A stretch of DNA of 64,000 bases, from positions 163,084 to 227,083 of the forward strand of contig JAJDUD010000024.1 of NCBI GenBank assembly GCA_022826825.1, written 5' to 3'. A program made the position numbers and the translations under genes. This document shows, one piece after another, positions 47,245 through 62,720 of the stretch (its first letter is position 1; every line of letters begins with the position of its first letter). This DNA comes from Acidobacteriota bacterium (GTDB taxonomy: Bacteria; Acidobacteriota; Vicinamibacteria; Marinacidobacterales; Marinacidobacteraceae). Below the pieces are notes generated by a model that was given only the letters and a program-made list of their open reading frames with translations, was not told the origin of the DNA and did no database searches.

Positions 47245-48636
47245 TCAGCAGCCGAGCCCCTGGGACATCTGGGCGTAGCTGGTGAGGGGGACCGCGCACA
47301 TCCTGCTCCAGTCCGCCTTGTCGATGACGGGCCGGCGCAGCAACTCCAGCATCTCGTCGAACTTGCGGAGGGCGGCGCACCCCACCGCCTCGGGGTCCGC
47401 CGCCTGACGGTGTTTCGGCCAGGCCTGGTCACGAGCGTAGCGCCAGAACCTGCTGTCGTACCGGGAGCCGCAGGAATAGTGCCAGCCGACGAACAGGCCG
47501 TAGCGCAACATGTTGTCCACGAGAAACCGGTTGATCACCGGCGCGTCGCCCTCGAGATGCTCGGCCGGACGGTTCAGGCGTGTCTCGAGGACCATCCCGA
47601 TCTGGAACTGGGCGGACACGATCGCGGTGGCTTCGAGCGGCTCCATGAAGGCCGCCCGGTTGCCGATCCGGGCCACCGCGCCATCGTAGATCCGGCGGTG
47701 GACGAAGTTGGGAAACGGGATGACGGCGCGCGGCTCGAATTCCGTCACGCCGTCGGCCTCCAGGAACGCGTCGAAGTCCGTTTGGACTTCGTCCAGGCTG
47801 GAAACGTCGCGGTTGAAGATGTACCCACAGGAGGTGTGCGCTACGAGTGGGATGACGAAGATCCAGCCGTGGGGACGCGCCACCGCCCGGGTATAGGTGT
47901 GCTGCAGAACCGGACCGTCCGGTCCGTCCCCGATGATCGCGGGACAGCGCCGGATCACGGCGGTGTCGGTGGGGATGAACGGAATGTGGATGTGCCGGGC
48001 GGGATCGATTTCGCGGGGAAACCCGCGCGCATCGAAGACGAGGTCATAGCGCTCGGGGGCCCGGTCCTCGAAGGCCACTTCGGCGCCACCGTCCACCCGC
48101 TTGATCCCGGTCACGTTCGCGTCCACGTGGTGCGCACGCGTGCTTTCGTGCAGCAGGTCCGCCATCCGGTCGGCGGACAGGTGGTAGGCGTAGGAAACCT
48201 GCTGCGGCGTGAAGTAGTGGGTGAAGTCCCGATGGCGCCGTCCCCAACCCTCGAAAGCCACGCCGTACTTGCGGGTTCCCTTCAAGCGCTGTTGAACGGT
48301 CTCATGGGGCAGCTCCGTCAGTTGCTGCAGATGCTCGACCAGGCTCGGCCAGCTGCCTTCCCCGACCCCGATGACCGGAATGCGCGAGTCGTAGATGTGA
48401 TGCAGCTCGCGGTCGCCGCCGGGGGGAAGGCGCGTAACACTGGCCGCCGCCAGCGACCCCGCGGTTCCTCGCCCGACAACGGCGATCTTCCGGAGAGATT
48501 CGCTGCCCGTTCGGATCACCCTCGATGACTTCCACGGGGTTCGGTCGATGGTCCCCTGGGCGCGATGTCCGGATGTGCTGCGTGCGCCATTGCCGGGACG
48601 CGACACTAGCACCATCGCCTTGCGGGTCACGGACAT
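47245..48636 (-). CDS. flavin-dependent (tryptophan-type) halogenase family protein
   Basis: Track ORF of 463 aa (start uncertain). FAD motif VVGRGTAG. IGVGEGSWPSL (compare IGVGEATIPSL of Trp halogenases). RKYGVAFEGW lysine context. GWIFVIPL (variant of the WxWxIP motif). Confidence 0.7.
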   Translation of the reverse strand: MSVTRKAMVLVSRPGNGARSTSGHRAQGTIDRTPWKSSRVIRTGSESLRKIAVVGRGTAGSLAAASVTRLPPGGDRELHHIYDSRIPVIGVGEGSWPSLVEHLQQLTELPHETVQQRLKGTRKYGVAFEGWGRRHRDFTHYFTPQQVSYAYHLSADRMADLLHESTRAHHVDANVTGIKRVDGGAEVAFEDRAPERYDLVFDARGFPREIDPARHIHIPFIPTDTAVIRRCPAIIGDGPDGPVLQHTYTRAVARPHGWIFVIPLVAHTSCGYIFNRDVSSLDEVQTDFDAFLEADGVTEFEPRAVIPFPNFVHRRIYDGAVARIGNRAAFMEPLEATAIVSAQFQIGMVLETRLNRPAEHLEGDAPVINRFLVDNMLRYGLFVGWHYSCGSRYDSRFWRYARDQAWPKHRQAADPEAVGCAALRKFDEMLELLRRPVIDKADWSRMCAVPLTSYAQMSQGLGC

Positions 48637-48750: not shown

Positions 48751-49002
48751 ATGAGAAACGGCGACGAGATGTTGCAGCAGATTGTCGAGAAGTCCGCCCT
48801 CGATGCGGACTTCCGGCGGCAGCTTCTGGCAGATCCGAAGAGCACCATTAGTGCGGAACTGGGGATCACGATTCCCGATTCCATGACCGTCAAGGTCCAC
48901 GAGAGCGACATGCAGACCGTGCATCTCGCGCTGCCCCCGGATCCGAACATCACCGAGGAGCAACTCGAAGCGATCTCGGCCGGCCTCTGCTGCTGCTGGT
49001 AG
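48751..49002 (+). CDS. NHLP (nitrile-hydratase-like leader peptide) family RiPP precursor, predicted core LCCCW
   Basis: ATG at 48751 with a strong RBS, 83 aa. IVEKSALDADFRRQLLADPKSTISAELGITIPDSMTVKVHESDMQTVHLALPP matches the NHLP leader. EEQLEAISAG matches the usual ...EELEAVAGG junction. It is followed by only LCCCW and a stop. Confidence 0.85.
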   Translation: MRNGDEMLQQIVEKSALDADFRRQLLADPKSTISAELGITIPDSMTVKVHESDMQTVHLALPPDPNITEEQLEAISAGLCCCW

Positions 49003-49188: not shown

Positions 49189-50304
49189 CTAGGAGATCGC
49201 GCCGGAGAGCACCATGAACACGTAGGCCTTGGCCGCGCGAAGCTGGTTGCCGGACAGGACCAGCTTGACGTGGTGGATTCCACGTAGCAGGACATAGCGC
49301 CCGGACTTCGCAAAGAGCGTGGTCGGCCTCGAGACCCAGTCGGCAAGCGCGTCGAGCTTTTCCGGGAACACGAGCTCCTCGTGACCGAGGGCTTTGAGGA
49401 ACGGTTGCCAATCGGTGAGGCCGTCGAGCCAGTAGCGTGAGCCCTTCGTGTACCGCTGTTTGACGATGAGCGTCAGTCCGAGTGTGGGGCCGACGCCGTC
49501 TTCCAGTACGTCGATGTTCACGCCGCTTCTGACGATGTGCGCGCGCTCCTGGAAGCGGGAGATCACGGAGTGGACGGCCGGGAGTTCCCCCGGCCAACCC
49601 GTGTTCGCGAGATACGAACCTGCTTCCCGCTCCGACTGGAAACCCATGACCGCCAGGCGAATGGCGCGGGAGCGGGACGGGAACACACCGAACGAATCCA
49701 TGCGCGTATCTTCCGGTTGCGCCAGGTAGGCCCGTTCGACGTTGTCCCGCTCGGCGGGGGTCAATGCCCAGCCCACGCTGGAAGCGAGCGCGTCAACCAC
49801 CAGACGGACGTCCTTCGCCTGACCTCCGGCGCCGATGATCGGACGTTCCCCGGGCCGCAGGAAGATGCCGGGAAGTGAGTCCCCATCGTCCCGCCCAAGT
49901 CCGATGTCGAATTCCAGCATCAGTTTGCGGCCGACGATCTCGCGCAGCGGCGAGTTCTCGGCCTCCATCCGGCGGAACAGCCGCGCAATCACCCTCGCCG
50001 TCTCGTCTCCCTTCCCGCTCCGGACGCGCTCGGCGAAGAACGCCGCGGTCCGCGTCCCGCTCGCCAGGGAGACGCCCAGGTCCGCCCTTGGCGTCGCTTC
50101 ATGCAGCGGCAGTTCGAAGCCGAAGGGCAGGGCGCCCATCGTGATCGGGAGTTCGCCGGCGCGCTCGAGGATGAGCTCCCACTCCGGGTCGCCGATCAGA
50201 ACCGGCGAGACCCGGTTCCGGAAGTGGCGCAGCAGATCGCTCAGGGCGCCGCCTTCCACGGCGAGACGGTCCTCGGTGAGAGTGACTGCCTCGTCAAGTT
50301 CCAC
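49189..50304 (-). CDS. hypothetical protein, last gene of the RiPP operon (no motif recognised)
   Basis: 371 aa. GTG start with GGAGG 7 nt upstream, 10 nt after the cyclodehydratase stop. Alternating beta/alpha-looking segments ending ...HHVKLVLSGNQLRAAKAYVFMV. Confidence 0.7.
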   Translation of the reverse strand: MELDEAVTLTEDRLAVEGGALSDLLRHFRNRVSPVLIGDPEWELILERAGELPITMGALPFGFELPLHEATPRADLGVSLASGTRTAAFFAERVRSGKGDETARVIARLFRRMEAENSPLREIVGRKLMLEFDIGLGRDDGDSLPGIFLRPGERPIIGAGGQAKDVRLVVDALASSVGWALTPAERDNVERAYLAQPEDTRMDSFGVFPSRSRAIRLAVMGFQSEREAGSYLANTGWPGELPAVHSVISRFQERAHIVRSGVNIDVLEDGVGPTLGLTLIVKQRYTKGSRYWLDGLTDWQPFLKALGHEELVFPEKLDALADWVSRPTTLFAKSGRYVLLRGIHHVKLVLSGNQLRAAKAYVFMVLSGAIS

Positions 50305-50314
50305 CTCAGCCTCC

Positions 50315-52633
50315 TCACGCGATCACCGGTGCGGGGTTCAGGTCCGCTTCGGCAAGGGGATGTTCCAGGCGCCCCATGCGGACCGGCACGTCGTAAAGGC
50401 GCCCGGGAGCGAACCTTGCCCAGAAATGGCGCATGCCGGGCACGATGACCCGCACCACCGGCATCCCGATGTCGGGCCGGGTCTGGTCCAGCACCAGGAA
50501 CTCCATGCCCCTGGTTTCGACGAGCGAGCGGGCGTTCTCCACATCTTCCCGGGTGTCGGTCGTTTCGGACACCGGATACCGGGAGGCCTTCGAGGGAGGC
50601 TGGCCGGCGGCCGGCGTGAGCCAGGGACAATCGGCCAGCCGGCCCGTCTTCCACCACCGAAGCGCCAGCGGATCGTCAATCGTGGGCCCGCCGCCGCGCT
50701 TCCCCGGGTCCGGCAGCCAGGTAAGGCACTGGTTCAGTTCACAGAGCGCCCGGAGCGCCGCGATCCGCGGGTCGTCGTGGGCGCCGGCGCCGTAGATGAT
50801 GTCCTCGGTCGGCGCGGACGGCCGGCGCGAGAGCGCGACGAAGGTGGGAACGCCGATATCCGAGGTGACGTCGAGCATCCACAGCTCTCGCTCGCGGCCG
50901 GCGTAGTAGTCCGGGGCCGATGCCAGGTACGCGTCGTCGAAGCTCGACAGATCGACTGCGGGCGCGCGCAGCCGGTTGTACCACCAGATGGCGAACCCGT
51001 CGCGTTCCGCGAGTTCATAGAAACCCTGGAGGATCGCTTCCTCCAGCGTGTTCCCCGCGGCGCAGCCGTTGGAATCGGCGATCAGGTCCTGGGGCCCGCG
51101 CGCCTCGGCCGGCCTCGAATAGAGCATCGACGTCGGCAGATAGCGGTGCCGGCGCTGCGTCAGCGACCACACGGGGGTCCAGTCGATTGGCGCGTCGGGG
51201 TCGAGACGCGGGGGTACCACGTTGTAGGGATGGCCCTGCGCGTTGACGGCATCCGCATTGTCGAGCTGGCTGTCGCTGAACAGTTGCACGTCGTTGGGAT
51301 GGATCGCCTCGTCCTCCGCGGTGAACTCGCGGAACCGGCGCCGGACGCGGATTTCGTCACCCGAGCCGGCGCCCGAAACACGCTCGATCGCTTCGCACAG
51401 CGCGCTGACCCGGGATTGCTCCGCAGTGCTGCCCTTGCCGGCGCTCTTGCTGCGCAGGCTGCGCCGGAGCGAACTCAGGCTCCGGTAGCTCAGGGCAGGG
51501 TTGCTCCCGGCCCAATAGACGTGCAGCCAGGAGTCGCTCTCGTCCGTGGTACGCGTCAGCCAGGTCACCACTCCGCTCACCGGGCTCACCAGGTGGCGGT
51601 ACTTCGCCAGGGTGACCTCCGGCGGCACCGAGCGCGCGCCGCCGCTGTTGCGATGGGTTTTGGGGCTCGGTTGCAGAGCGAGTGGAACCGGCGGCCGGTC
51701 CGGGCGATAGAGCGCCGCGTCGCCGCAGGCCCGGCACTGCGGCCGGCGGCTTACCGGGTGCCGCGAGCTTCGAAAGGAACCGATGTCCATGGCGATCGCG
51801 TGGTCGTGGATCGGAGCCGCGTCAGACAGCACGATCCACTTGACCACCTCGGCCGCGATCAGCCCGCAGAGCGCTTCCAGCACGGCGGGCTGGGCGGCGA
51901 ACGGCCTGAAGGCAGCCTTCTCCCCCGCGGCGCTGCGCAGGAAACGGTGGACTTCCCGATGGCTGCCCAGCCGGTGCGCGAGACAGGCCCAGCAGGGTCC
52001 CCGGCGGTCCGCCCGAAAGACCGGGCCGAACAGCGGCTCCATGCCGCGGGGCCGCACCACGGTCCACGGCGCCCCCGCTTCGAGCCGGCGACCATTCGCC
52101 TCGCCAAGGCGCGCTTCGAGATAGTCGTCGCAGACCAGGACGGTGAGGTCCGGGTCCCGAGGCCCGACCGCCGCGCCGTTCGCTTCCAGATGCCGGGCGA
52201 ACCGGCCGTCGTCCCCTTCCACGGCGATGCGCGATTCCGCGAGCCGCTGCTCGACCCAGCGTGGCGAGGCGCCCAGCGACGACCAGTAGGCCGCCCGGCG
52301 CCGGTCCAGCGCGTGATCGGCGGAGACGACGTAGCCCCTCGCGGACAGCGAAGCCACGGCGGTGAGCACCTCTGCCGCGGAATGGGTCCCCTCGAGGGCC
52401 GTGACAATCTCGTCGGACGGATGGCGGCCGTCGAGCAGTGGCAGCAGCGTGCGATACAGCTCGCCGTGCAGGAGGGTGTTGAAGGACTCGGAGACCAGCA
52501 GGGTCTGCCGTTCGCCGAGGTCCCGGAACTCCAGGTGCGGGGCCAGCGCCGGAAGCCCGACGAGGCCCTGGTCGGCGGGAGTGGTGCGGGTCAGGATTCC
52601 CTGCCGGGAAACGCCGCCGGTCTGCGCTGGCAT
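50315..52633 (-). CDS. fused TOMM-type cyclodehydratase (E1-like/docking domain + YcaO domain)
   Basis: The ATG at 52633 (MPAQTGG...) lies within track ORF 50315..52783. N-terminal half has the GPCWACLAHRL and PQCRACG Cys pairs of the cyclo_dehyd_2 domain. C-terminal half is YcaO/SagD-like (SAGKGSTAEQSRVSALCEAIER..., ADSNGCAAGNTLEEAILQGFYELAERD, VVRVIVPGM). Confidence 0.85.
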   Translation of the reverse strand: MPAQTGGVSRQGILTRTTPADQGLVGLPALAPHLEFRDLGERQTLLVSESFNTLLHGELYRTLLPLLDGRHPSDEIVTALEGTHSAAEVLTAVASLSARGYVVSADHALDRRRAAYWSSLGASPRWVEQRLAESRIAVEGDDGRFARHLEANGAAVGPRDPDLTVLVCDDYLEARLGEANGRRLEAGAPWTVVRPRGMEPLFGPVFRADRRGPCWACLAHRLGSHREVHRFLRSAAGEKAAFRPFAAQPAVLEALCGLIAAEVVKWIVLSDAAPIHDHAIAMDIGSFRSSRHPVSRRPQCRACGDAALYRPDRPPVPLALQPSPKTHRNSGGARSVPPEVTLAKYRHLVSPVSGVVTWLTRTTDESDSWLHVYWAGSNPALSYRSLSSLRRSLRSKSAGKGSTAEQSRVSALCEAIERVSGAGSGDEIRVRRRFREFTAEDEAIHPNDVQLFSDSQLDNADAVNAQGHPYNVVPPRLDPDAPIDWTPVWSLTQRRHRYLPTSMLYSRPAEARGPQDLIADSNGCAAGNTLEEAILQGFYELAERDGFAIWWYNRLRAPAVDLSSFDDAYLASAPDYYAGRERELWMLDVTSDIGVPTFVALSRRPSAPTEDIIYGAGAHDDPRIAALRALCELNQCLTWLPDPGKRGGGPTIDDPLALRWWKTGRLADCPWLTPAAGQPPSKASRYPVSETTDTREDVENARSLVETRGMEFLVLDQTRPDIGMPVVRVIVPGMRHFWARFAPGRLYDVPVRMGRLEHPLAEADLNPAPVIA

Positions 52634-52665
52634 TCGGCTTTTCCGCGCTGGATCAGCCGGCCCCC

Positions 52666-53985
52666 TCAGGCGCGCGAACGGGAACCAACCTGCAAGACCT
52701 CGACGAGCCGCTCCAGCGCTTCGATGCAGAACGCGGACGTGACGGCTTCGGAGCCGTGCCCGATCTGCCCCACCGTGCCCCACTTCAGGGTCTGGTCACC
52801 GAACGCGAGAAGCTCCGGCCAACTGCCGTCCTCCTGCTGGGAACCCAGCAGTCCTTCCGCCTGGCGCTTCGCGTCGATGCCGTCGAGGCGTCCGATGTTG
52901 TGGAGCGCCGACACCGCCTGGGCGGTCCGCAGCACGTTGCCGAATCCGCCCCGGCCGTCCCCGAGTTCCAGGATGCGATCCGCGAGCACCGGCCGCAGTC
53001 GATCCAGGGCCGGCCGCGCCCGGAGCAGCGCGCGTGACACCGCATAGTAGATCGAGACCTTGTCGGGGTACCACTTGGACGAGCCCTCGACGCCTCCTTC
53101 GGCGATGAGCGCCTCCAGCCAGCGCTGGGCATCCCGGGTTTGTGGGTGGTCGCCAAGATAGGCGATGACGTTCGCATTGACGACGGGGTCGGCTTCGATG
53201 CGAAACGTCGACACCACGCTCGGCTCGTCCTCCGCGAGCACCCAGGTCATGAAACGGCCTTCCTCGTCGCGATTCGCCAGCATGGACGGCACGTTCCTCC
53301 CCAGCAGGATCCAGGGGTGGGTTCCGATGACCATGGAGCACAGCGCCGTGCTGTCGAGGTCCTGGGGGAGATGGCGGTAGTACCGCCAGAGTCCGGGATG
53401 TTCGATGGTGTCGGCCAGGTAGGCCCGGGTGGCGGCGCAGATGGCCCGCGCCCGCGGTTCAGCGCAACATTCGAGGGCGAGCACGCAAAAGGCCGAAACG
53501 AAGGGCGGTCTTTCGAAATGCCGTGGAACGTCCGGATTGCCGACGTTGAACCGGATGCAGTGCCAGGCTCCGTTTTCGTCGATCGTGGATTCCAGGAAAT
53601 CGAGACCCCGGCGGATGCCCGCCCGACCCGCGTCGGCGAGTGCCTCGGGGGTGGCCGCGTCCTTTCCGGCCCTCGCCCGTCCGGGGGCGGGTGGGCGGAG
53701 CGGCGGGGCGGGGTCGTGGAGCGTCTTCTTGAGAAACTCCAGTGACCCGGCGCCCGTCCGGGCCGCGCTGCGCTCGGCCGCGCTGAGTCTGGGGGGCGGC
53801 GGCAACACCACGTGCGTTGTGGCGTAGCTCTCTTCGTGTACGTGGATCGCGTGATCATCGGGGAGCCTCACGCCGAATTCCGCTTCGACCGTTTCCTTTG
53901 GCGCCCGAAGCAGGCGTTCGCGAAAGTCGCGGTCCCGGGAGGCTCTCGACACGAGGACATCGGCGGCCTCCAGCGGTTTCTTCAT
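52666..53985 (-). CDS. NHLP-leader-like domain fused to a squalene-cyclase/prenyltransferase-repeat (alpha/alpha toroid) domain
   Basis: ATG at 53985 (RBS GAGGG), 439 aa. Residues 1-65 align without gaps to the precursor leader (DFR.RLL..PK.T..AE.G...PD....VHE....H..LPP.P). The rest carries QW-type repeats (LDFLESTIDENGAWH, RDEEGRFMTW, GDGRGGFG, LLGSQQEDGSWPE). Confidence 0.8.
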   Translation of the reverse strand: MKKPLEAADVLVSRASRDRDFRERLLRAPKETVEAEFGVRLPDDHAIHVHEESYATTHVVLPPPPRLSAAERSAARTGAGSLEFLKKTLHDPAPPLRPPAPGRARAGKDAATPEALADAGRAGIRRGLDFLESTIDENGAWHCIRFNVGNPDVPRHFERPPFVSAFCVLALECCAEPRARAICAATRAYLADTIEHPGLWRYYRHLPQDLDSTALCSMVIGTHPWILLGRNVPSMLANRDEEGRFMTWVLAEDEPSVVSTFRIEADPVVNANVIAYLGDHPQTRDAQRWLEALIAEGGVEGSSKWYPDKVSIYYAVSRALLRARPALDRLRPVLADRILELGDGRGGFGNVLRTAQAVSALHNIGRLDGIDAKRQAEGLLGSQQEDGSWPELLAFGDQTLKWGTVGQIGHGSEAVTSAFCIEALERLVEVLQVGSRSRA

Positions 53986-54038: not shown

Positions 54039-56984
54039 TCAGGCGATCTGCCTCTTGACCAGTTCGCGGAATACCCCGTCCACCTCCATGAGTTCCCTGA
54101 AGGAGCCGCACTGGACCACTCTTCCGGCCCGCAGGACATAGATGCGGTCGGCCTGTTCCAGCGTGGACAGGCGGTGGGCGATGACGAGCCGCGTGGAGGT
54201 CAGGGCCGCGAGGTTCCGCATGACCATGGCCTGGCTTTCGTTGTCCAGCCAGTTGGTCGCTTCGTCGAACAGCATGATCCGCGGGCTGCCGATCACCGAA
54301 CGGGCGATCGTGACGCGCTGGCTCTCGCCGCCGGAAAGGACCGCCCCGGTGGTGCCCACCATGGTCATCAGGCCCATCGGCATGGCCTTGATTTCGTCTT
54401 CGACCCTGGCGGCGCGGAGCGCCTTCCAAACCTCCTCGCTCGTCACCTGATCGTGGTGGCTGACCACGTTGTCCCACAGATCCTGGGGATGCAGACGAAC
54501 GGACTGGGGGACGGCGCCGATGCGCCGGCGGACCTGCTTCAGGTTCAGGTGCCGCAGGTCACGTCCGTCGTAGTACACCGCGCCGGCGGTCGGCCGGTGG
54601 ACCCCCAGCGCAAGCTGGAACAGGGTGCTCTTGCCGGCGCCCGACGCGCCGGCGATCGCGATGAACTCACCGGGGCGGGCGTGAATCGTGACGTCGTCGA
54701 GAATCAGGGGTCCGTCGTCGTCATAGCGGAAGGAAATGCGGTCGAACAGGATGTCGCCGCCCAGGTGTTCCACCGGCTCGCCCTCGACATCGGTCTCGGG
54801 GACGGCGGCGAGCAGCGGACGCATCTGCTCGAACGCCGGCAGCGTGGCGGCAATGGCGCCGACGGAATCCCCGAGCCGCGCCACCGAGGCCTGGAACGTG
54901 AGAAAGACCGTGTAGACCACCAGGAAATCGCCGACCGGCACGTTGCGGTCCCCCGTCGTCACCACCGCGAAGAGCAGCGCTCCGGCGGCCAACAGGGGGA
55001 GTGCGGCGCCGAACGCGCGGGAGTGTCCTTCGAGCGCGCCGAGGTCGAGTTCCGCGCGTTTCTGCTCCCGATAGTCCCGCGCCCACATCGCGAAGGCCGA
55101 TCCTTCCGCGCTCTCGATGCGCAGCTTGGCGATGCCCCCCACGATCTGAAACAGCCGGGCCGCTACGCGCCGGGCGGCGCTGATCATCCGCCCATGGGGT
55201 GCGGTCTGGCGCCACCCGAGGACCAGCGTGATCAGCAGCGACGCCAGGCTGAAGACGAGCGCGATGGTCCCCAGGCGGGCGTCGTAGAAGAAGACCAGGC
55301 CCAGGACCGGAAGCAGGAAAATGCAGGACAGCAGGCTGTCCGCGACCGCTCCCTGCAAGCCGTCGCGCAGATTCTGGAACGTCATTCCCGACATGGCCAG
55401 ATCGCTGGACGGAAGGGGGCGCAAAACGCTCGGGGGCAGGCGCATGAGGCGGTCCCAGAAGGCGGCCTCGACCCGGGAAGCTCCCCGGCCCTCGAGCCGC
55501 ATCATCGCCGAGCTCTGGAACAGGTGCAGCAGGGCGCCGAGCAGGCCGAACCCCGCCACCGTCGCGGCCACGGCATAGAGCGCTCCCGCGTTTCCGCCTG
55601 CCGCCACGTGATTCGCGACGAATCCAAGCGCGAGCGCCGGAACCAGTTTGATCAGTCCGCCCGGCAGCCCGGCCGCCGTTAGCCGCGCCAGGTCCCCGGC
55701 CGATCCGTGGAGGGCGATCCTGAAGAGGTCCGCCGGCTGCACGCGCCGGGATGGCAGTGGCCGATAGAAGACCCAGGCTTCCTCTCCCAGGGCCCCGGCG
55801 CGGTCCGCGCCCAGCCGGACGCTGCGCTTGCTCGCCGGATCGATCTCCCGGTAACGCCCGAACGTTCCCGGCAGGAGCGCCACGGGCCGGCCGTCCTCGG
55901 CGCGGAACGCCAGCATCGCGTTGCTGTCGCCGCGCCACCAGTCGCCCTCGGCCTTGAACCGCACGCGGCGGGCCCGCACCCCCGACGCGTCGAGGATGTC
56001 CACGAGGCCGACCGGGGCATCGGCCGACACTCCCGAACGCACGGGAATCCTGAAGTCGATTCCCTCGTGGCGGCCGATGATTTCGAGCGCCTCCGCCAGC
56101 GCCGTGACTTCGGCACTCGCATCCCGGTCCAGCGGCAGGTCATAGATGTTGAAGAGCCGCTGCCGCGCCGTCTTTTCGGCCGCGCGCCGGCTCGTGGTCT
56201 GGGCGCGTTCGAGATTCGCCTCGTCGACGGTCGCCAGCCGCCGGTTATGGCGTTCCAGGGCGAAAGCAGTCCGGTGGAAGGAAGCGAGCCCGGAAAGCAG
56301 GGCGCCCCGCTGCGCCAGCGTTTCGGTCGATTCGCCGGAAAGGGTGGCCTCGCCGAACACGGTCAGCCAACTGGTCCGCGTCAGGGGCACCGGGACTGCG
56401 GATGCGCCGCCGCTCTCCGCCCGCTCCGCCGGATCGGCGATGCCCATGTAGAGGGTCGCTCCCCGCGGGGGTTCGGATACCCACACCACCGAGCGGCGCA
56501 CCGACAGCGTACCGGGCGTCAGGGTTTGCGTCAGGCCCGGTTCCGCAAGCGCGGTCGCCCGCGGCAGGCGGCTCGCAAAACGCGAGAGGGTGTCCGTGAC
56601 GGCGGACAGCCAGGCGTCTGTCTGTTCCGCCAGCTCCGCCGGATGGACCTCCGACAACAACGACGCCGGGAGGCGCCTCAGAAGGGTGCCGGGCGAGCCC
56701 TTGGCGATCACGCTGAGCCGGGTGTCGTCGTCACCCCCGCCCTCGTCGGGCGGGACGCCCGGCAACAGGCAGCCGGACTCGCGCCGAAGCAGGTGCTGCG
56801 GCGCCGCGCGCTCGACGCCGCCCTGGAATTCCACCAGGAACAGGTTGACCGCACCCCGATCGATGAACCAGACACTGTCCGCGTCGTCCAGCTGCACCGG
56901 CAGGTTGCCGGTGCAGGGCACGGGCGCACCGCAGCGGGCGGCGAGTGCCGCCATGGACGTGGTTCTCGGTCCCGCGTCGTTCAT
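54039..56984 (-). CDS. NHLM-type bacteriocin export ABC transporter, permease/ATPase subunit without an active peptidase domain (ABC2)
   Basis: 981 aa. Long N-terminal extension of about 470 aa, then a six-TM exporter domain. Walker A GASGAGKST, signature LSGGESQR, Walker B IMLFDEAT. The stop/start overlaps the upstream gene (ATGA). Confidence 0.8.
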   Translation of the reverse strand: MNDAGPRTTSMAALAARCGAPVPCTGNLPVQLDDADSVWFIDRGAVNLFLVEFQGGVERAAPQHLLRRESGCLLPGVPPDEGGGDDDTRLSVIAKGSPGTLLRRLPASLLSEVHPAELAEQTDAWLSAVTDTLSRFASRLPRATALAEPGLTQTLTPGTLSVRRSVVWVSEPPRGATLYMGIADPAERAESGGASAVPVPLTRTSWLTVFGEATLSGESTETLAQRGALLSGLASFHRTAFALERHNRRLATVDEANLERAQTTSRRAAEKTARQRLFNIYDLPLDRDASAEVTALAEALEIIGRHEGIDFRIPVRSGVSADAPVGLVDILDASGVRARRVRFKAEGDWWRGDSNAMLAFRAEDGRPVALLPGTFGRYREIDPASKRSVRLGADRAGALGEEAWVFYRPLPSRRVQPADLFRIALHGSAGDLARLTAAGLPGGLIKLVPALALGFVANHVAAGGNAGALYAVAATVAGFGLLGALLHLFQSSAMMRLEGRGASRVEAAFWDRLMRLPPSVLRPLPSSDLAMSGMTFQNLRDGLQGAVADSLLSCIFLLPVLGLVFFYDARLGTIALVFSLASLLITLVLGWRQTAPHGRMISAARRVAARLFQIVGGIAKLRIESAEGSAFAMWARDYREQKRAELDLGALEGHSRAFGAALPLLAAGALLFAVVTTGDRNVPVGDFLVVYTVFLTFQASVARLGDSVGAIAATLPAFEQMRPLLAAVPETDVEGEPVEHLGGDILFDRISFRYDDDGPLILDDVTIHARPGEFIAIAGASGAGKSTLFQLALGVHRPTAGAVYYDGRDLRHLNLKQVRRRIGAVPQSVRLHPQDLWDNVVSHHDQVTSEEVWKALRAARVEDEIKAMPMGLMTMVGTTGAVLSGGESQRVTIARSVIGSPRIMLFDEATNWLDNESQAMVMRNLAALTSTRLVIAHRLSTLEQADRIYVLRAGRVVQCGSFRELMEVDGVFRELVKRQIA

Positions 56985-59194
56985 CGGCCTGACTTGACCA
57001 GCCTGTAATACGTGCCGTCCCGGTCGGCGATCAGATCGTCGTGCGTGCCGCGCTGCACCTGGGCGCCCTTGTCGAGCACGATGATCTCGTCGCAGTCCCG
57101 CACCGTACTCAGCCGGTGCGCCACGATCAGGCAGGTGACGCCGCGGCGCCGCAGGGCATCGTCGACGGTTTCCTCGGTGGCGGCGTCGAGCGCACTGGTC
57201 GCCTCGTCCAGAACGAGCACCGTCGGGTTCCCCACCAGGGCCCGCGCGATCTCCAGGCGCTGCCGCTGGCCGCCGCTGAAGTTCACGCCGCCTTCCTCGA
57301 CGAGAGTCGCGTATCCGTGCGGCCGGAGCAGGATCTCGTCATGGATCGCGGCGTCTCGGGTCGCGGCGCTGATGACTTCATCGGGAACGGCCGGGTTCCA
57401 CAAGGTGATGTTGTCGCGGAGGGTCGCGGAAAAGAGAATGGCGTCCTGATCCACCATGGAAATCGAGCGTCGCAGCACTTCGGCGGGAATCTCGTCGCGC
57501 GCGCGGCCATCGAAGCGGATCTGGCCCGACCAGGGCTGACAGATTCCGGAAACGAGACGCGCCAGAGTCGACTTGCCGGACCCGCTCGGCCCCACCACGG
57601 CAACCCGCTGCCCCGGCTCGATCGCCAGGTTGAAGTCCTTGATCAGGGGTTGCCGGCTCTTGTTGTAGCCGAAGGTGACGTTGCGCAATTCAAGCCTGCC
57701 GGCGAGCTGCAGCCGGCCGTCCAAGGTGGCGATGGACTCCGATTCGGGACTCCGGCGGGTGAAGGCGGGGTCCTTCGCCGTCTTCGAGACGTCTTCCAGT
57801 CGCTGCAGATCGGTCTCCAGCGCGTGGCGTTTCTCGGCGAACTCGAGGAAACGCCCGACCGGCGTCAGGAACATCTCGGCCAGGATGAAGAACCCGACGA
57901 GGGACCCCAGGGTCATTTCGCCGGCGATGACCAGGCTCCCGCCGACGCCCAGGATCGCCGCGGCGCGCAGGGCGCCGATCAGGCCCGGAAACGCCGTGTT
58001 GAGGGCCCCGAGTTCGGAGTACTGCTGGCGCGCGCGCAGTTCGCGCGCCTGCTGCCCGCTCCAGCGCGAGAAGAACCGGTCGTCCGCGCCGGTCATGCGC
58101 AGGTTGTCCGCGCTACTCAACATCTGCATGCCGACGCCGATCAGCAATCCCTGTTCGCGCCTCATCGCCTGGCTTCGGACGGTCCGCAGCGCGCCCAGGA
58201 AGTGGACTCCCGTCGCGTGCAGGAGGGCCAGCAACGCCACGACCAGGGTGAGCGTCACGTCGTACGCCAGCATGGCGATGACGAGCACCGCGCTCATCGC
58301 CATGTCGATGACGAGCACCAGGAACTGCTCCGTCAGGTTCTTGGCGATTCTGTCGATGGACGAGACCCGGTCCGTCAGATCGCCTACCAGGCGGTGCTCG
58401 AAGAATGCCACCGGCAAACGCAGCAGCCGCGACAGGCCGCGGTTGAAGCCGCTGACCGAAATCCGTACCGCCAGCCGCTTCAGGAACCGGTGCTTCAGCA
58501 GCGACAGGACGTACACCAGGACGCCGCCGCCCAGCAGCGCCGCCACCAGTCCGCCCCAGGGCCCGTGGTTGGCCACCAGGTCGTCCACGAACACCCCGAC
58601 CGACGCGGGGACCACCAGGGCAATCAGCGTCAGCATGAGCGCGCAGGCCATCACTCCGGTGAGCACGCTCCACGATCCGGCAAGCAGGCCCCGCAACTGC
58701 TCGAACAGACCAGGCCGTTCGCCACCGGGACGGAAGCCGGGGCCGCGCTGGAATCGCAGCGCGATCCCACTGAAACTCTTGCTGAACTCCTCGGCGGAGA
58801 GTCTGCGCCGCCCCGTGGCCGGGTCATTCAGATAGAAACTGCGGCCATCGAACCCTTCGAGGACCAGGAAGTGGCTGAACTGCCAGAACAGGATCAGGGG
58901 TAAAGGCAGCTTCGGGAGCTGGTCCGCGCGAACGCTGAGTCCGCCCACTTCGAGCCCGTAGTGCCGGGCGGCGCGCGCGATGCTGGCGGCGCTGCTTCCG
59001 TCCCGGCTCACCTCGCATTTCTCCCGCAGTTGGGTGAGCGGCACCCAGCGGCCGAAGTAACCCAGTACGCTCCCGAGGCAGGCGGCCCCGCATTCCGATG
59101 CGTGCATCTGCAGCACAACGGGGGTGGTTACCCGTCGTTTCGGGAAGCCCGGCGCCGCCTTGGCGCCGTCGCCCCGCGAAGGGCCGCTCCGCAT
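56981..59194 (-). CDS. NHLM-type bacteriocin export ABC transporter with N-terminal C39 peptidase domain (ABC1)
   Basis: 737 aa. C39 catalytic context QMHASECGAACLG and later FSHFLVLEG...YLNDP. Walker A GPSGSGKST, signature FSGGQRQR. Confidence 0.85.
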   Translation of the reverse strand: MRSGPSRGDGAKAAPGFPKRRVTTPVVLQMHASECGAACLGSVLGYFGRWVPLTQLREKCEVSRDGSSAASIARAARHYGLEVGGLSVRADQLPKLPLPLILFWQFSHFLVLEGFDGRSFYLNDPATGRRRLSAEEFSKSFSGIALRFQRGPGFRPGGERPGLFEQLRGLLAGSWSVLTGVMACALMLTLIALVVPASVGVFVDDLVANHGPWGGLVAALLGGGVLVYVLSLLKHRFLKRLAVRISVSGFNRGLSRLLRLPVAFFEHRLVGDLTDRVSSIDRIAKNLTEQFLVLVIDMAMSAVLVIAMLAYDVTLTLVVALLALLHATGVHFLGALRTVRSQAMRREQGLLIGVGMQMLSSADNLRMTGADDRFFSRWSGQQARELRARQQYSELGALNTAFPGLIGALRAAAILGVGGSLVIAGEMTLGSLVGFFILAEMFLTPVGRFLEFAEKRHALETDLQRLEDVSKTAKDPAFTRRSPESESIATLDGRLQLAGRLELRNVTFGYNKSRQPLIKDFNLAIEPGQRVAVVGPSGSGKSTLARLVSGICQPWSGQIRFDGRARDEIPAEVLRRSISMVDQDAILFSATLRDNITLWNPAVPDEVISAATRDAAIHDEILLRPHGYATLVEEGGVNFSGGQRQRLEIARALVGNPTVLVLDEATSALDAATEETVDDALRRRGVTCLIVAHRLSTVRDCDEIIVLDKGAQVQRGTHDDLIADRDGTYYRLVKSGR

Positions 59195-59195
59195 G

Positions 59196-59732
59196 CTAGG
59201 CGGGCCTCATTCGCAATAGGGCGAGGGGCGCCTGCCTGCCGAGTTCGATGACGAGCCGGCATTCCTGACCCGCCCGGGGAGCAAGGGCGAGGTTCTCGTC
59301 GATCGCGATGCGGACGCGGTACGCGGACACGGGCGCGACGCCCGCGAGCGCCGCCAGTCCGCCGGGCAGCGGGACGGCGGAAATGGTGGTGACCTCTCCG
59401 GCGAGCGTCTCTGCTTCGCCGTCGGCGACGGTCAGTTCGACTCGCGCCGGCATTCCGGCCTTGATGTGCGGCGCGATGCCGGGTGCGATCCGGACGAGGG
59501 CCTCGAGGGACCGATTCCCACCGGGCTCGACCACGACCCCGTCCACGGCAAGGCTGCGCGACACGGCGCCGAGGAAGAGCCAGCCGGTGAGACCCAGCAA
59601 GAGCAGAGCGATGGCGCCGACGAGCAGCCGTTCCCGCGGCGTGGAGACAGTCAGCAGCCGGTCGAGTTGCTCACGCTCTTCCTTTGCTTCGGCGACGGTG
59701 TCGTGAAAGGAGCCAAAGGGGTCGTTGAACAC
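59196..59732 (-). CDS. HlyD-family/NHLM secretion adaptor-like protein, unusually short
   Basis: 178 aa. GTG start with AGGAGG upstream. Single TM helix (LLVGAIALLLLGLTGWLFLGAV), then a beta-barrel-like segment (GMPARVELTVADGEAETLAGEVTTIS). No long coiled-coil hairpin. Confidence 0.65.
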   Translation of the reverse strand: MFNDPFGSFHDTVAEAKEEREQLDRLLTVSTPRERLLVGAIALLLLGLTGWLFLGAVSRSLAVDGVVVEPGGNRSLEALVRIAPGIAPHIKAGMPARVELTVADGEAETLAGEVTTISAVPLPGGLAALAGVAPVSAYRVRIAIDENLALAPRAGQECRLVIELGRQAPLALLRMRPA

Positions 59733-60112: not shown

Positions 60113-61237
60113 ATGCCCGAAGGACCGCCTGTTTCGTCCCCGGCCACGCCGGATCCCCGGGAGGAACTCGTGCGGCTCCTGAGGGAGCTGGTCGGCCGCG
60201 GGGGAAGCGACCTGCACCTGAGCCCGGGCACCGCGCCCCGGCTGCGGATCGACGGCCGGCTCACCCAGCCGGAGGGCGAACCGCTGCCCGCGGAAGTCGT
60301 GGAGTCGATGGTGTCCGCCGGCATTCCGGATCGCCAGCGGACACTGCTCGAGCAGGGCGGGGAGGCGGACCATGCGTTCACCCTCACCGGAGTCGCCCGC
60401 TTCCGCAGCAGTCTGTTTCGGTGTCGGGGGGCGCTCGCGGCGGTCTACCGGGTGGTGCCGGGAGAAGTGCCGTCACTCGATGCGCTCGGCCTGCCGGGGA
60501 GCGCGGCGGCCCTGGCCGGACTGGCCTCCGGACTCGTCCTCACCGCCGGTCCGGTCGGCTCCGGCAAATCCACCACGATGGCGGCCATCCTGGACCGGAT
60601 CAACCGCACCCGCGCGGTGCACATCGTTACCATCGAGGACCCGGTAGAGGTCATCCATCGGAATCGGCGGGCCCTCGTCACCCAGCGGCAGGTCGGTCGC
60701 GACACCGCTTCCTTTCACGACGCGCTTCGTTCGGTGCTGCGTTCCGACCCGGATGTGGTGATGATCGGCGAGATTCGGGACCGGGACACCGTCGATGCCG
60801 CGCTCCGGGTCAGCGAAACCGGACATTTGGCGCTGGCCACCATCCACGCCCGTTCGGCCCTCCACGCGCTGACCCGGGTCGTGGAGATGTTCCCGGCCTC
60901 CCAGCATCGTCAGGCCCGGATTCGGCTCTCGGTGTCGCTGGAGGCGATCTATTGCCAGCGCCTCGTGCCCCGGGCCGACGGAAGGGGACGCGTCGTGGCG
61001 GTGGAGCAGCTCGCCCCGACTCCTGCCGCGCGGAACCTGATCCGCGAAGACAAGTTGCACCAGCTCTTCGCCGTCATGGACGCCGGCGCCGGGCGGGGCG
61101 CCTCGGTATCGCTCAACGAAGCGCTGATCTCGCTGTGGCGTCGGGGAATCATCACCCGCAGCGACGCGCTCGCGGCGTCGAACGATCCGGTAGCCCTGGG
61201 GGCGGCACTCGGTTCCGCCACGAACGGCCGGGCCTGA
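60113..61237 (+). CDS. pilT: type IV pilus retraction ATPase PilT family
   Basis: 374 aa. SDLHLSPG...RIDG, Walker A GPVGSGKSTT, TIEDPVE and MIGEIRD motifs. Confidence 0.85.
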   Translation: MPEGPPVSSPATPDPREELVRLLRELVGRGGSDLHLSPGTAPRLRIDGRLTQPEGEPLPAEVVESMVSAGIPDRQRTLLEQGGEADHAFTLTGVARFRSSLFRCRGALAAVYRVVPGEVPSLDALGLPGSAAALAGLASGLVLTAGPVGSGKSTTMAAILDRINRTRAVHIVTIEDPVEVIHRNRRALVTQRQVGRDTASFHDALRSVLRSDPDVVMIGEIRDRDTVDAALRVSETGHLALATIHARSALHALTRVVEMFPASQHRQARIRLSVSLEAIYCQRLVPRADGRGRVVAVEQLAPTPAARNLIREDKLHQLFAVMDAGAGRGASVSLNEALISLWRRGIITRSDALAASNDPVALGAALGSATNGRA

Positions 61238-61258
61238 TCTCCGGGATCGGCGGCGAGC

Positions 61259-62377: not shown

Positions 62378-62437
62378 GTAGCCGGCAATGAAACGCACGC
62401 GGCATTCCCCACCCTCCCGCACAACCTGCGCGTCACG

Positions 62438-62645
62438 GAAACGGCCTGGAACGCCGACCTCCGGCCGGCACCGCGGGCCGAAGGTCCGCGGACGACGTGC
62501 CGGTGTCCGCCTCGGGGGACGCGGATCCGGGTACGTCCCGTGTGTTGGGTTGCACCGAGCGAGAGGACCATCCCGCGCGTCGGCGCGCTGCCGTGCGCGG
62601 TGCGGAGCATCGCGCGTGCCGACCGGAGGTCGGCGTTCCAGGCAG
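62438..62645. repeat. MITE/REP-like element, family A, full copy
   Basis: GAAACGGCCTGGAACGCCGACCTCCGGCCGGCAC ... GTGCCGACCGGAGGTCGGCGTTCCAGGC. The interior is homologous to 17473-17682. Confidence 0.8.
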
Positions 62646-62720
62646 GCGCCGCCCCCGTGGCGCCCGGCCGCCCGTCTCCACGGGCCCGTTCCCCACCCCG
62701 TCCAAGGAGGACGTATCCTT

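What the first reader, a model, noticed from the sequence alone, without database searches (positions are those of the whole stretch)
52666..53985. A second NHLP leader copy is fused to a 370-aa squalene-cyclase/prenyltransferase-repeat protein
Seen:
- Residues 1-65 of this protein align to the precursor leader with no gaps. By hand count 26 of 65 positions are identical.
- D20-F21, P29-K30, V49-H50-E51 and L61-P62-P63 sit at the same residue numbers in both proteins.
- It also has an Ala-Gly (ARTGAG, residues 79-80) two residues away from where the precursor has its AG junction (residues 77-78).
- After a Pro/Ala-rich linker come QW-like repeats typical of alpha/alpha toroid terpene cyclases and prenyltransferase beta subunits.

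Inference, with three non-exclusive readings:
- (a) A natural in-cis leader that constitutively docks or activates the enzyme on the cyclodehydratase leader-binding domain.
- (b) A leader that targets the whole toroid protein to the C39 exporter for cleavage and secretion.
- (c) A decoy that regulates precursor processing.

I am not aware of a described natural fusion of a RiPP leader to a toroid-fold enzyme.
Basis: partly seen in the sequence, partly recalled or inferred. Interest (0 to 1): 0.88.

Follow-up and report, generated by a model that had tools for sequence, protein, structure and literature searches.

The report
Leader-like domain fused to terpene cyclase
A gene in a known sponge-symbiont peptide-antibiotic cluster joins a copy of the precursor peptide's folded leader to a terpene cyclase, and with a neighbouring prenyltransferase it predicts that the cluster's still-unknown product carries a cyclised lipid.

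Summary
Residues 1-65 match the precursor leader without gaps at 26 positions, and the start codon and fusion are conserved in the 120 best of 1075 homologues.

The window carries the published 'srp' proteusin cluster of sponge microbiomes: an LCCCW precursor, a YcaO cyclodehydratase, a Trp brominase and NHLP-type exporters.

The C-terminal toroid is a single-domain class II terpene cyclase. It resembles drimenol synthase, MstE and squalene-hopene cyclase, and its acid motif DLDSTA is intact.

The neighbouring 371-aa gene has no family match but has the ABBA aromatic-prenyltransferase fold. In other bacteria the same two domains are fused, or sit next to NHLP precursors whose cores contain Trp. 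This matches the NctPC-type maturases cited from Hubrich et al. 2024.

The cyclase therefore most likely cyclises an isoprenoid that the prenyltransferase puts on the core Trp.

The fused leader copy keeps the fold core. It has lost, family-wide, the L(X)4L motif, the cleavage context and the helix-1 face read by YcaO enzymes. The Ala-Gly at residues 79-80 is not conserved.

This argues against the export-signal reading and against docking or decoy action at the cyclodehydratase. A docking role toward the prenyltransferase or the cyclase itself is my favoured inference, but it is untested.

Verdict: a new variant of a known kind.

The parts
52666..53985 (-). Fusion gene (439 aa): NHLP-fold domain, conserved linker and class II terpene cyclase. 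It is probably SrpA of the published srp cluster; that name mapping is my inference.
   Evidence: ORF and start codon. The 120 best of 1075 homologues cover 97-100% of the query at 73-97% identity. AlphaFold2 model with pLDDT 87.6.
53752..53985 (-). Residues 1-78: NHLP-fold domain. It has three helices (4-17, 19-27, 29-37), two strands (48-51, 57-60) and a helix at 69-76. It is a paralogue of the precursor leader, lacks L(X)4L, and ends at the invariant Gly78.
   Evidence: TIGR03793 E = 1.3e-12. PDB 8TB1 hit. BLASTP E = 1e-17 against the precursor. Position-by-position comparison of the two families.
53650..53751 (-). Residues 79-112: linker. The first half (A-x-SLEFLRKTLHDPAPP) is as conserved as the domains. 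The second half is Pro/Ala/Arg-rich and variable.
   Evidence: Mean pairwise identity is 77% for residues 68-92 and 52% for residues 93-112. pLDDT is low across the linker except for the residue 91-100 block.
52666..53649 (-). Residues 113-439: single-domain class II terpene cyclase (alpha/alpha toroid).
   Evidence: Foldseek: drimenol synthase 9m7f E = 3.5e-12; MstE 6sbc E = 2.8e-9 with TM 0.68 normalised to the target; single-domain cyclases 8paj/8pak; squalene-hopene cyclase; oxidosqualene cyclase. Family profile against PDB sequences: squalene-hopene cyclase 3e-27, drimenol synthase 7e-26.
53344..53361 (-). Residues 209-214, DLDSTA: the general-acid motif of class II cyclases. The wider family consensus is DLDDTA.
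   Evidence: The profile aligns this motif with PDVDDTA of squalene-hopene cyclase and DDLDTTS of drimenol synthase. D209 and D211 are conserved in at least 90% of 50 diverse family members.
52819..52839 (-). Residues 383-389, QQEDGSW: a QW motif.
   Evidence: Q383, G387 and W389 are conserved across the wider family. This stretch aligns with the QW repeats of squalene-hopene cyclase.
49189..50304 (-). Partner gene (371 aa) with no Pfam or NCBIfam match and an ABBA aromatic-prenyltransferase fold. It is probably SrpD; that name mapping is my inference.
   Evidence: No family hit. Model with five alpha-alpha-beta-beta repeats, pLDDT 86.5. All of the top 50 Foldseek hits are ABBA prenyltransferases. 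It is homologous to the N-terminal half of prenyltransferase-cyclase fusion proteins, E = 4e-8.
48751..49002 (+). Precursor SrpE (83 aa): NHLP leader, ITEEQL motif, AG cleavage site, core LCCCW.
   Evidence: TIGR03793 69 bits. Matches the published description (252-bp gene, LCCCW core, ITEEQL).
50315..52633 (-). YcaO cyclodehydratase with a leader-binding domain (SrpC). The likely start is Met51 of the longer ORF that runs up to 52783.
   Evidence: PF02624 6.6e-95, TIGR03882 and TIGR03604. Homologues are 772-774 aa.
47245..48636 (-). Flavin-dependent Trp halogenase (SrpI-type brominase).
   Evidence: PF04820 1.5e-42. Published role.
54039..59732 (-). Export genes: a 178-aa protein that resembles only the N-terminus of the secretion protein (59196-59732), a C39-peptidase ABC transporter (56981-59194) and a second ABC subunit (54039-56984).
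   Evidence: TIGR03796 838 bits, TIGR03797 666 bits, TIGR03794 weak. Same order in other loci.

Best explanation
The gene encodes a tailoring enzyme of the known srp proteusin pathway.

1. Its C-terminal domain is a single-domain class II terpene cyclase.
2. The adjacent 371-aa ABBA-fold prenyltransferase most likely attaches a polyprenyl group to the C-terminal Trp of the LCCCW core while the leader is still attached.
3. The cyclase then protonates the distal double bond through Asp211 and cyclises the chain.
4. This would happen alongside thiazoline formation by SrpC and 6-bromination by SrpI, and before cleavage and export.

The N-terminal domain is a duplicated precursor leader. It has kept only the folded three-helix nucleus. 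It has lost the motifs that make a leader a substrate for the cyclodehydratase, the brominase and the C39 peptidase.

I infer that it is a protein-protein docking module. It would tether the cyclase to the maturation machinery, most plausibly to the prenyltransferase or to the cyclase domain's own surface. In that role it would stand in for the covalent prenyltransferase-cyclase fusion seen in related systems.

Shown: the folds, motifs, homologies, synteny and conservation.
Inferred: the substrate, the order of steps and the role of the leader-like domain.

The confidence of 0.5 is for the whole statement. The cyclase-plus-prenyltransferase part alone I would put near 0.75, and the docking role of the leader-like domain near 0.4.
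For: The cyclase domain:
- Best structural matches are drimenol synthase, MstE, single-domain cyclases and squalene-hopene cyclase.
- A family profile matches squalene-hopene cyclase at 3e-27 and drimenol synthase at 7e-26. The DLD(D/S)TA motif aligns on the catalytic DVDDTA and DLDTTS motifs.
- D209 and D211 are nearly invariant among 50 diverse members.

The partner gene:
- The neighbour models as five alpha-alpha-beta-beta repeats. All of its top 50 Foldseek hits are ABBA prenyltransferases.
- Proteins P0260 and P0243 carry a homologue of the 371-aa protein fused N-terminally to the cyclase (E = 4e-8 and 6e-5).
- Other cyclase relatives are fused to a UbiA prenyltransferase or to a region with a weak Trp_DMAT match.

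Genomic context elsewhere:
- In Nostoc (L031) and in L030 an NHLP precursor is followed by the prenyltransferase homologue and then the cyclase. L031 also carries NHLP-type exporters.
- L014 pairs the cyclase with an NHLP precursor.
- L020 pairs the prenyltransferase and cyclase with an SrpC-like YcaO.
- All four precursor cores compared contain one Trp.

Published precedent:
- NctPC (ABBA domain plus MstE-like cyclase domain) geranylgeranylates a Trp and then cyclises the chain. This comes from the review PMC13290415 citing Hubrich et al. 2024.

The leader-like domain:
- It is under selection. Mean pairwise identity is 72%, against 81% for the cyclase domain, in 121 members.
- Fold-core residues are invariant in both families. 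The helix-1 face and L(X)4L positions differ consistently.
- Folded leader nuclei are known to be gripped by inserted hydrophobic side chains of a LanM enzyme and of an ABBA prenyltransferase (PMC12537861 and PMC12715784).
Against: - No product of the srp cluster is known, and no biochemical data exist for either gene in the papers I could read.
- The last Asp of DxDD is Ser in the srp clade. Drimenol synthase has Thr at that position, so this need not abolish activity.
- In L020, L030 and L031 the cyclase is neither fused to the prenyltransferase nor carries a leader-like domain. A tether is therefore not a general requirement.
- The partner of the leader-like domain is not identified by any test here. 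No complex model or contact map could be computed.
- The helix-1 rule comes from one other NHLP/YcaO pair (MprE7/MprC) and may not transfer to SrpC.
Confidence: 0.5

Rival explanations
1. The in-cis leader copy docks the cyclase on the cyclodehydratase leader-binding domain, or competes there as a decoy. SrpC is presumably a dimer with two leader-binding sites. One could hold the precursor and the other the cyclase's leader-like domain. That would build a multi-enzyme complex or throttle processing.
For: - SrpC has a TOMM leader-binding domain (TIGR03882) and a winged-helix domain.
- The fusion gene lies directly upstream of the YcaO gene.
- The folded nucleus of the leader is retained and conserved.
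- YcaO enzymes of this type bind the leader on one monomer and act on the core in the other (PMC12455567).
Against: - For MprE7/MprC both the helix-1 face and the L(X)4L motif are required.
- In the fusion family the equivalent helix-1 positions are D, D, L/F/S, S, G. In SrpE they are E, Q, Q, E, A.
- L72 is Arg in 119 of 121 members, and I75 is Ala in 121 of 121.
- In many srp loci an extra 795-aa gene separates the fusion from the YcaO gene.
Confidence: 0.15
2. The leader copy acts within the same polypeptide. It occupies a leader-binding site on the cyclase domain and holds the enzyme in an active or closed state. The cyclase could then act on a substrate whose own leader is engaged elsewhere or already removed. 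This would be a natural counterpart of engineered leader-enzyme fusions.
For: - The linker segment SLEFLRKTLHDPAPP is as conserved as the domains (77%).
- The residue 91-100 block of the linker is modelled with higher confidence than the rest of the linker. This is compatible with packing against the toroid.
- The fusion is restricted to one clade and is universal within it.
Against: - No contact map or complex prediction was available.
- Stand-alone cyclases of the family work with NHLP precursors without such a domain.
- Leader-dependence of this cyclase type is unknown.
Confidence: 0.2
3. The leader is a secretion signal. The C39-peptidase ABC transporter would recognise it, cleave after Gly78 or Gly80, and export the toroid protein.
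For: - Gly78 is invariant and aligns with the precursor's cleavage-site Gly.
- 13 of 121 members have Ala-Gly at residues 77-78.
- Position -12 is hydrophobic.
- The gene is translationally coupled to the exporter genes.
Against: - Positions -4 and -7 are Ala and Arg rather than the Ile and Leu of the precursor.
- Gly80 is present in only 2 of 121 members.
- From established knowledge of these exporters, a folded 40-kDa enzyme is far outside their known peptide cargo.
- The enzyme needs cytoplasmic prenyl diphosphates and a leader-bearing substrate.
Confidence: 0.03
4. The toroid is not catalytic. It would be an isoprenoid- or product-binding immunity or carrier protein, and the leader copy would be an evolutionary remnant.
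For: - The third Asp of the acid motif is Ser in the srp clade.
- Alpha/alpha toroids also serve as binding domains. Complement thioester domains appear among weak Foldseek hits.
Against: - The catalytic-position Asp residues, QW motif and other family-wide residues are conserved.
- Drimenol synthase is active with DLDTT.
- The N-terminal domain is 72% conserved across phyla, which does not fit a remnant.
Confidence: 0.08

Closest known systems
srp (sponge-derived RiPP proteusin) gene cluster, Nguyen et al., J Am Chem Soc 2021
   Same: - Same precursor: 83 aa, NHLP leader, ITEEQL motif, LCCCW core.
- Same SrpC-type YcaO, SrpI-type brominase and NHLP-type exporters.
- Same 8-gene order in MAGs labelled Acidobacteriota, and the same genes in loci from Gemmatimonadota, Nitrospinae and Deltaproteobacteria.
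   Different: - Nothing differs at cluster level; the window carries a member of this cluster.
- The papers I could read describe the remaining genes only as being of unknown function.
- The 2021 paper itself was not available, so I cannot say how it annotated this gene.
- This copy lacks the ~795-aa desaturase-like gene found in many other copies.
NctPC / ChrPC prenyltransferase-cyclase maturases (Hubrich et al., Chem 2024; product 'steromaze')
   Same: - An MstE-like class II cyclase works with a prenyltransferase on a Trp of a ribosomal precursor.
- Here the prenyltransferase has the ABBA fold, as in NctPC.
- Homologues of both window proteins sit next to an NHLP precursor in a Nostoc genome.
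   Different: - In NctPC the two domains are one polypeptide.
- Here they are separate genes, and the cyclase is instead fused to a leader-like domain.
- The srp pathway adds thiazolines and bromination.
- The Trp is C-terminal in a 5-residue core.
- The primary paper was not available, so I do not know whether it mentions the srp variant.
MstE and drimenol / drimenyl-diphosphate synthases (class II terpene cyclases)
   Same: Alpha/alpha toroid fold, acid motif of the DxD(D/T/S)T type, QW motifs and single-domain size like MstE.
   Different: - 16-21% sequence identity.
- The known enzymes act on small-molecule prenyl substrates.
- None carries a peptide-leader domain.
NHLP leader peptides (TIGR03793; MprE7 structure 8TB1)
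   Same: Same fold core, with F21, R22, L25, L26, P29, E36, G38, V49-H50-E51, H58 and L61-P62-P63 invariant in both families.
   Different: - No L(X)4L motif.
- No conserved double-glycine-type site.
- No short core.
- The domain is followed by a 360-aa enzyme.
- The score is below the model's cut-off.
Engineered leader-enzyme fusions (leader fused to LctM or LynD; from my own knowledge, not checked here)
   Same: A leader is covalently attached to a tailoring enzyme of the same pathway.
   Different: - Those are laboratory constructs that keep the binding motif so the enzyme is constitutively activated.
- Here the fusion is natural, and the known binding motif has been lost.

Membership tests
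NHLP leader peptide RiPP precursor (TIGR03793) | Score at or above the curated cut-off of the family model | tested here: not met
   47.4 bits against a cut-off of 50.9, although E = 1.3e-12. The true precursor scores 69 bits.
NHLP leader peptide RiPP precursor (TIGR03793) | Folded nucleus: three-helix bundle plus two strands | tested here: met
   AlphaFold2 secondary structure. Sequence hit to the NMR structure 8TB1. Core residues shared with SrpE.
NHLP leader peptide RiPP precursor (TIGR03793) | L(X)4L motif in the C-terminal part of the leader | tested here: not met
   Positions 67, 72 and 75 are L/F, R and A in the fusion family. In SrpE they are I, L and I.
NHLP leader peptide RiPP precursor (TIGR03793) | Double-glycine-type cleavage site followed by a short core peptide | tested here: not met
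   Gly78 is invariant, but position -2 is Thr in 101 of 121 members, -4 is Ala and -7 is Arg. A 360-aa enzyme follows.
Class II terpene cyclase (squalene-hopene cyclase / MstE / drimenol synthase type) | Alpha/alpha toroid fold | tested here: met
   Foldseek E = 3.5e-12 to 2.8e-9 against class II cyclases. TM 0.68 against single-domain members, normalised to the target.
Class II terpene cyclase (squalene-hopene cyclase / MstE / drimenol synthase type) | General-acid Asp motif (DxDD or a variant) at the homologous position | tested here: met
   DLDSTA (residues 209-214). The family consensus DLDDTA aligns on DVDDTA of squalene-hopene cyclase and DLDTTS of drimenol synthase.
Class II terpene cyclase (squalene-hopene cyclase / MstE / drimenol synthase type) | QW repeat motifs | tested here: met
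   Q383-x-x-D-G-S-W389 is conserved across the family and aligns with the QW repeats of squalene-hopene cyclase.
Class II terpene cyclase (squalene-hopene cyclase / MstE / drimenol synthase type) | Protonation-initiated cyclisation of a polyprenyl chain | not testable with these tools
   Needs an enzyme assay.
Protein prenyltransferase beta subunit | Closest fold and sequence relatives are prenyltransferase beta subunits, with an alpha-subunit partner gene | tested here: not met
   Beta subunits appear only at Foldseek E = 3.5e-4 to 1e-3, far behind the cyclases. No PF00432 hit. No alpha-subunit gene in the cluster.
LanC-type lanthionine cyclase | LanC fold match, and Ser/Thr plus Cys in the core peptide | tested here: not met
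   No LanC among the top 50 structural hits or the profile hits. The core LCCCW has no Ser or Thr.
srp proteusin gene cluster | LCCCW-type NHLP precursor with a YcaO, a Trp halogenase and NHLP-type exporters | tested here: met
Prenyltransferase-cyclase RiPP maturase system (NctPC type) | ABBA-fold prenyltransferase plus MstE-like cyclase encoded with an NHLP precursor whose core contains Trp | tested here: met
   Literature description.
Prenyltransferase-cyclase RiPP maturase system (NctPC type) | Both domains in one polypeptide | tested here: not met
   They are separate genes here (49189-50304 and 52666-53985). True fusions exist elsewhere, for example P0260 and P0243.
Prenyltransferase-cyclase RiPP maturase system (NctPC type) | Cyclised polyprenyl group on Trp in the product | not testable with these tools
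   The srp product is unknown. This needs heterologous expression with mass spectrometry and NMR.

The most novel reading that the evidence does not exclude
Nature has turned a folded RiPP leader into a permanent adaptor domain of a tailoring enzyme. The leader copy on the cyclase would assemble the srp maturation complex by using the same leader-nucleus recognition that the pathway's enzymes use for the substrate. The ubiquitous but cryptic srp peptide of sponge microbiomes would then be a brominated, thiazoline-containing pentapeptide bearing a polycyclic terpene on Trp.
Probability: 0.3. Interest if true: 0.8.

Novelty: new variant of a known kind. Interest (0 to 1): 0.6.

Why it matters
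The srp cluster is described as being among the most widespread and most highly transcribed biosynthetic clusters in sponge microbiomes. It is often present in dozens of copies per metagenome and across many phyla. Its final product and ecological role are nevertheless unknown.

Recognising that two of its genes of unknown function are a prenyltransferase and a terpene cyclase gives a concrete, testable structure class for the product.

The leader-like domain is also a natural experiment in how large folded leaders mediate protein-protein recognition. If it proves to be a docking module, it offers a portable handle for assembling RiPP enzymes in engineered pathways.

Tried and rejected
Papers I could not read:
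- The two key primary papers were not in the library: Nguyen et al. 2021 (PMC8780398) and Hubrich et al. 2024 (PMC11484575). The related Nguyen et al. 2022 paper (PMC9746716) was not held either.
- I could therefore not check how they annotate this gene.
- Seven srp-related or sponge-BGC papers and supplements that I could read mention no squalene, prenyl or fusion feature for srp.
- Full-text searches for NHLP plus terpene cyclase returned nothing.

Searches that led nowhere:
- The single-sequence PDB search found nothing for the toroid. Only the family profile did.
- BLASTP of the 371-aa protein against P0175 was negative. Against P0218 it was marginal, E = 0.09.
- Three context look-ups landed on short contigs and gave little.
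- A scan for further precursor-like small ORFs near cyclase genes in five loci gave mostly spurious ORFs.

Explanations considered and rejected:
- Gene-calling or assembly artefact. The architecture recurs in the 120 best homologues, which come from many independent assemblies, beside a separate genuine precursor gene.
- A downstream start codon. The N-terminus is conserved from Met1.
- Prenyltransferase beta subunit or LanC identity.

Not attempted:
- Complex modelling and inspection of inter-domain contacts. The tools return no coordinates or contact maps.
Full report
**1. The observation**

The ORF at 52666-53985 on the minus strand encodes 439 residues. Its ATG is the first in-frame start after the stop codon of the upstream ABC-transporter gene, and a GAGGG precedes it.

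The DF, PK, VHE and LPP matches sit at the stated residue numbers. None of 100,000 shuffles exceeded 15 identities.

- BLASTP of the two proteins gives E = 1e-17 over residues 1-78.
- The NCBIfam model for NHLP leaders matches residues 9-67 at E = 1.3e-12. The score of 47.4 bits is just under the 50.9-bit cut-off.

The fusion is not an artefact. The search returned 1075 homologues, and the best 120 are 427-466 residues long, cover 97-100% of the query and are 73-97% identical. They share the MKKP N-terminus. In other loci the gene abuts or overlaps the stop of the upstream gene.

**2. The surroundings**

The cluster contains these genes:
- a halogenase;
- the precursor, ending AG|LCCCW;
- a 371-residue protein with no family match;
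- a YcaO cyclodehydratase with a leader-binding domain;
- the fusion;
- two NHLP-type ABC exporter subunits, one with a C39 peptidase;
- a small 178-residue protein.

This is the published 'srp' cluster of sponge microbiomes. In that cluster the 252-bp precursor gene encodes an LCCCW core, SrpC makes three thiazolines and SrpI brominates the terminal Trp at position 6.

The same genes recur in metagenome-assembled genomes labelled Acidobacteriota, Gemmatimonadota, Nitrospinae and Deltaproteobacteria. That fits the reported spread across phyla.

The accessible papers call the remaining genes 'of unknown function'. The original 2021 paper was not available.

**3. The C-terminal domain**

An AlphaFold2 model built on 50 diverse homologues (pLDDT 87.6) shows an alpha/alpha toroid from residue 113 onward.

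Foldseek places it with class II terpene cyclases:
- drimenol synthase, E = 3.5e-12;
- the single-domain cyclase MstE, E = 2.8e-9, TM 0.68 normalised to the target;
- two single-domain cyclases from myxobacteria;
- drimenyl-diphosphate synthase, squalene-hopene cyclase and oxidosqualene cyclase.

Prenyltransferase beta subunits and complement thioester domains appear only near E = 1e-3.

A profile of the family matches squalene-hopene cyclase at 3e-27 and drimenol synthase at 7e-26. It aligns the family motif DLDDTA on the catalytic DVDDTA of squalene-hopene cyclase and on DDLDTTS of drimenol synthase.

In the srp clade the motif is DLDSTA (residues 209-214). D209 and D211 are nearly invariant across the wider family, as is a QW motif at residues 383-389.

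It can be sharpened to 'class II terpene cyclase with an intact acid motif'.

**4. The partner gene**

The 371-residue neighbour models as five alpha-alpha-beta-beta repeats (pLDDT 86.5). All of its top 50 structural matches are ABBA aromatic prenyltransferases, many of them indole prenyltransferases.

A search of 1.8 billion representative proteins showed three things:
- The cyclase domain mostly occurs alone, as proteins of 300-340 residues at 28-47% identity.
- The leader-like domain is present only in relatives at 50% identity or more.
- Some relatives carry other N-terminal domains.

Two of those relatives, P0260 and P0243, carry a full-length homologue of the window's 371-residue protein (E = 4e-8 and 6e-5). 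Others carry a UbiA prenyltransferase or a region with a weak Trp_DMAT match. One, P0200, has an N-terminal half that, from its sequence alone, looks like a terpene or isoprenyl-diphosphate synthase; I did not test this. Such fusions mark the two window proteins as functional partners.

**5. Relatives in genomes**

A scan of species-representative genomes, followed by a search with the window's proteins, found the following:
- A Nostoc locus (L031) with an NHLP precursor, the prenyltransferase homologue, the cyclase and NHLP-type exporters in a row.
- A second locus (L030) with precursor, prenyltransferase and cyclase.
- A third (L014) with cyclase and NHLP precursor.
- A Rhizobium-labelled locus (L020) with prenyltransferase, cyclase and a YcaO very close to SrpC.

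The cores after the double-glycine site are GITWSSASNSCSC, GGAKKDWGVSVNF and AWLNGACVGYQA. Like LCCCW, each contains a single Trp.

This matches what a 2026 review reports from Hubrich et al. 2024. NctPC, an ABBA-fold domain fused to an MstE-like cyclase domain, geranylgeranylates a Trp and then cyclises the chain. ChrPC does the same with a different prenyltransferase fold.

The kind of chemistry is therefore known. Its presence in srp, and the leader-cyclase fusion, are not mentioned in any paper I could read.

**6. The leader-like domain**

It is not a remnant. In 121 family members its mean pairwise identity is 72%, against 81% for the cyclase. The first part of the linker (SLEFLRKTLHDPAPP) reaches 77%.

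I compared 8 SrpE sequences with the 121 fusions.

| Feature | Positions | SrpE | Fusion family |
|---|---|---|---|
| Fold core | F21, R22, L25, L26, P29, E36, G38, V49-H50-E51, H58, L61-P62-P63, G78 | invariant or nearly so | invariant or nearly so |
| Helix-1 face | 6, 9, 10, 13, 16 | E, Q, Q, E, A | D, D, L/F/S, S, G |
| L(X)4L and neighbour | 67, 72, 75 | I, L, I | L/F, R, A |

- The helix-1 positions correspond to MprE7 Q7, S10, Q11, A14 and W17, which contact the YcaO leader-binding domain.
- Both the helix-1 face and the L(X)4L motif are needed for an NHLP to engage its YcaO.
- The L(X)4L motif alone is what SrpI reads.
- The C39 peptidase is described as reading the same L(X)4L motif. 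That the -4 and -7 positions are its key determinants is my own knowledge.

These data argue against export or cleavage of the enzyme. They weaken docking or decoy action at the cyclodehydratase or brominase.

What remains is the folded nucleus. Other work shows that a LanM enzyme and an ABBA prenyltransferase grip such nuclei by inserting hydrophobic side chains.

I therefore favour a docking role toward the prenyltransferase, or an intramolecular contact with the cyclase. This step is inference. No complex model or contact map could be computed.

The cyclases in L020, L030 and L031 manage without such a domain, so it is a clade-specific solution and not a general need.

**7. Verdict**

The gene is a member of a known cluster and of a recently described enzyme kind, with an undescribed architectural twist.

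The practical value is a testable prediction: the cryptic srp product carries a cyclised isoprenoid on its brominated Trp. The leader-derived domain may also prove to be a natural protein-protein adaptor.

Noticed in passing
window 49189-50304 (-): This 371-aa gene has no Pfam or NCBIfam match, yet it models confidently as an ABBA aromatic prenyltransferase. It is 73-91% identical in the 119 other homologues listed, out of 950 found, some from MAGs labelled as different phyla.
   Followed up: yes
L064 2088-4484; L065 1519-3915; L066 5118-7505; L063 14071-16164; L001 1-1588; gap in L042 8714-11231: Many srp clusters carry an extra 697-822 aa gene with a fatty-acid-desaturase domain. It often lies between the fusion and the YcaO gene. 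tblastn finds no copy anywhere in this 64-kb window. It may be a further tailoring step, such as oxidation of the azolines or of the terpene.
   Followed up: partly
window 50315-52783 (-): The YcaO ORF as listed overlaps the end of the fusion gene by 118 bases. Homologues are 772-774 aa, so the real start is probably Met51 at 52633, which leaves a 32-base gap.
   Followed up: partly
window 59196-59732 (-): This 178-aa protein resembles only the first ~55 residues of the 421-residue NHLP secretion (HlyD-like) protein. It is conserved at 183-184 aa in other srp loci, so it is a short form and not a broken gene.
   Followed up: partly
L006 4403-4765 (+): A 120-aa ORF lies directly upstream of a true prenyltransferase-cyclase fusion (P0260). 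It ends in ...SHSGW, with a C-terminal Trp like the srp core. It has no NHLP similarity and may be a different type of precursor.
   Followed up: no
L020 7770-12372: A locus labelled Rhizobium sp. has the prenyltransferase, a cyclase without the leader-like domain, and a YcaO very close to SrpC (E = 1e-170). This architecture is intermediate between the Nostoc type and srp. I did not find its precursor.
   Followed up: partly
proteins P0247, P0178, P0187/P0223, P0200 (one search hits): The same cyclase domain is fused elsewhere to a UbiA prenyltransferase plus TPR repeats, to a sulfotransferase and to DUF2332. P0200 has an N-terminal half that from its sequence looks like a terpene or isoprenyl-diphosphate synthase; I did not test this.
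   Followed up: partly
homologues P0001-P0120 and P0271-P0390: Both the fusion and the prenyltransferase are 73-97% identical in genomes labelled Acidobacteriota, Gemmatimonadota, Nitrospinae, Delta-, Alpha- and Gammaproteobacteria. This implies recent horizontal spread of the whole cassette.
   Followed up: partly
L017 8978-9211 (-): A 77-aa Cys/Gly-rich ORF ending ...CTSGWGF lies just downstream of a stand-alone cyclase and an ABC transporter. It may be a precursor of another peptide class.
   Followed up: no
window 10695-16493 (-); 38726-40444 (+); 60113-63377 (+): The flanking genes are ordinary chromosomal ones: a 1932-aa helicase-nuclease fusion of the UvrD/PD-(D/E)XK type, a secretin, and type IV pilus genes (ATPase, platform protein, pilin). 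The cluster sits between the CTP synthase gene and the pilus genes.
   Followed up: partly
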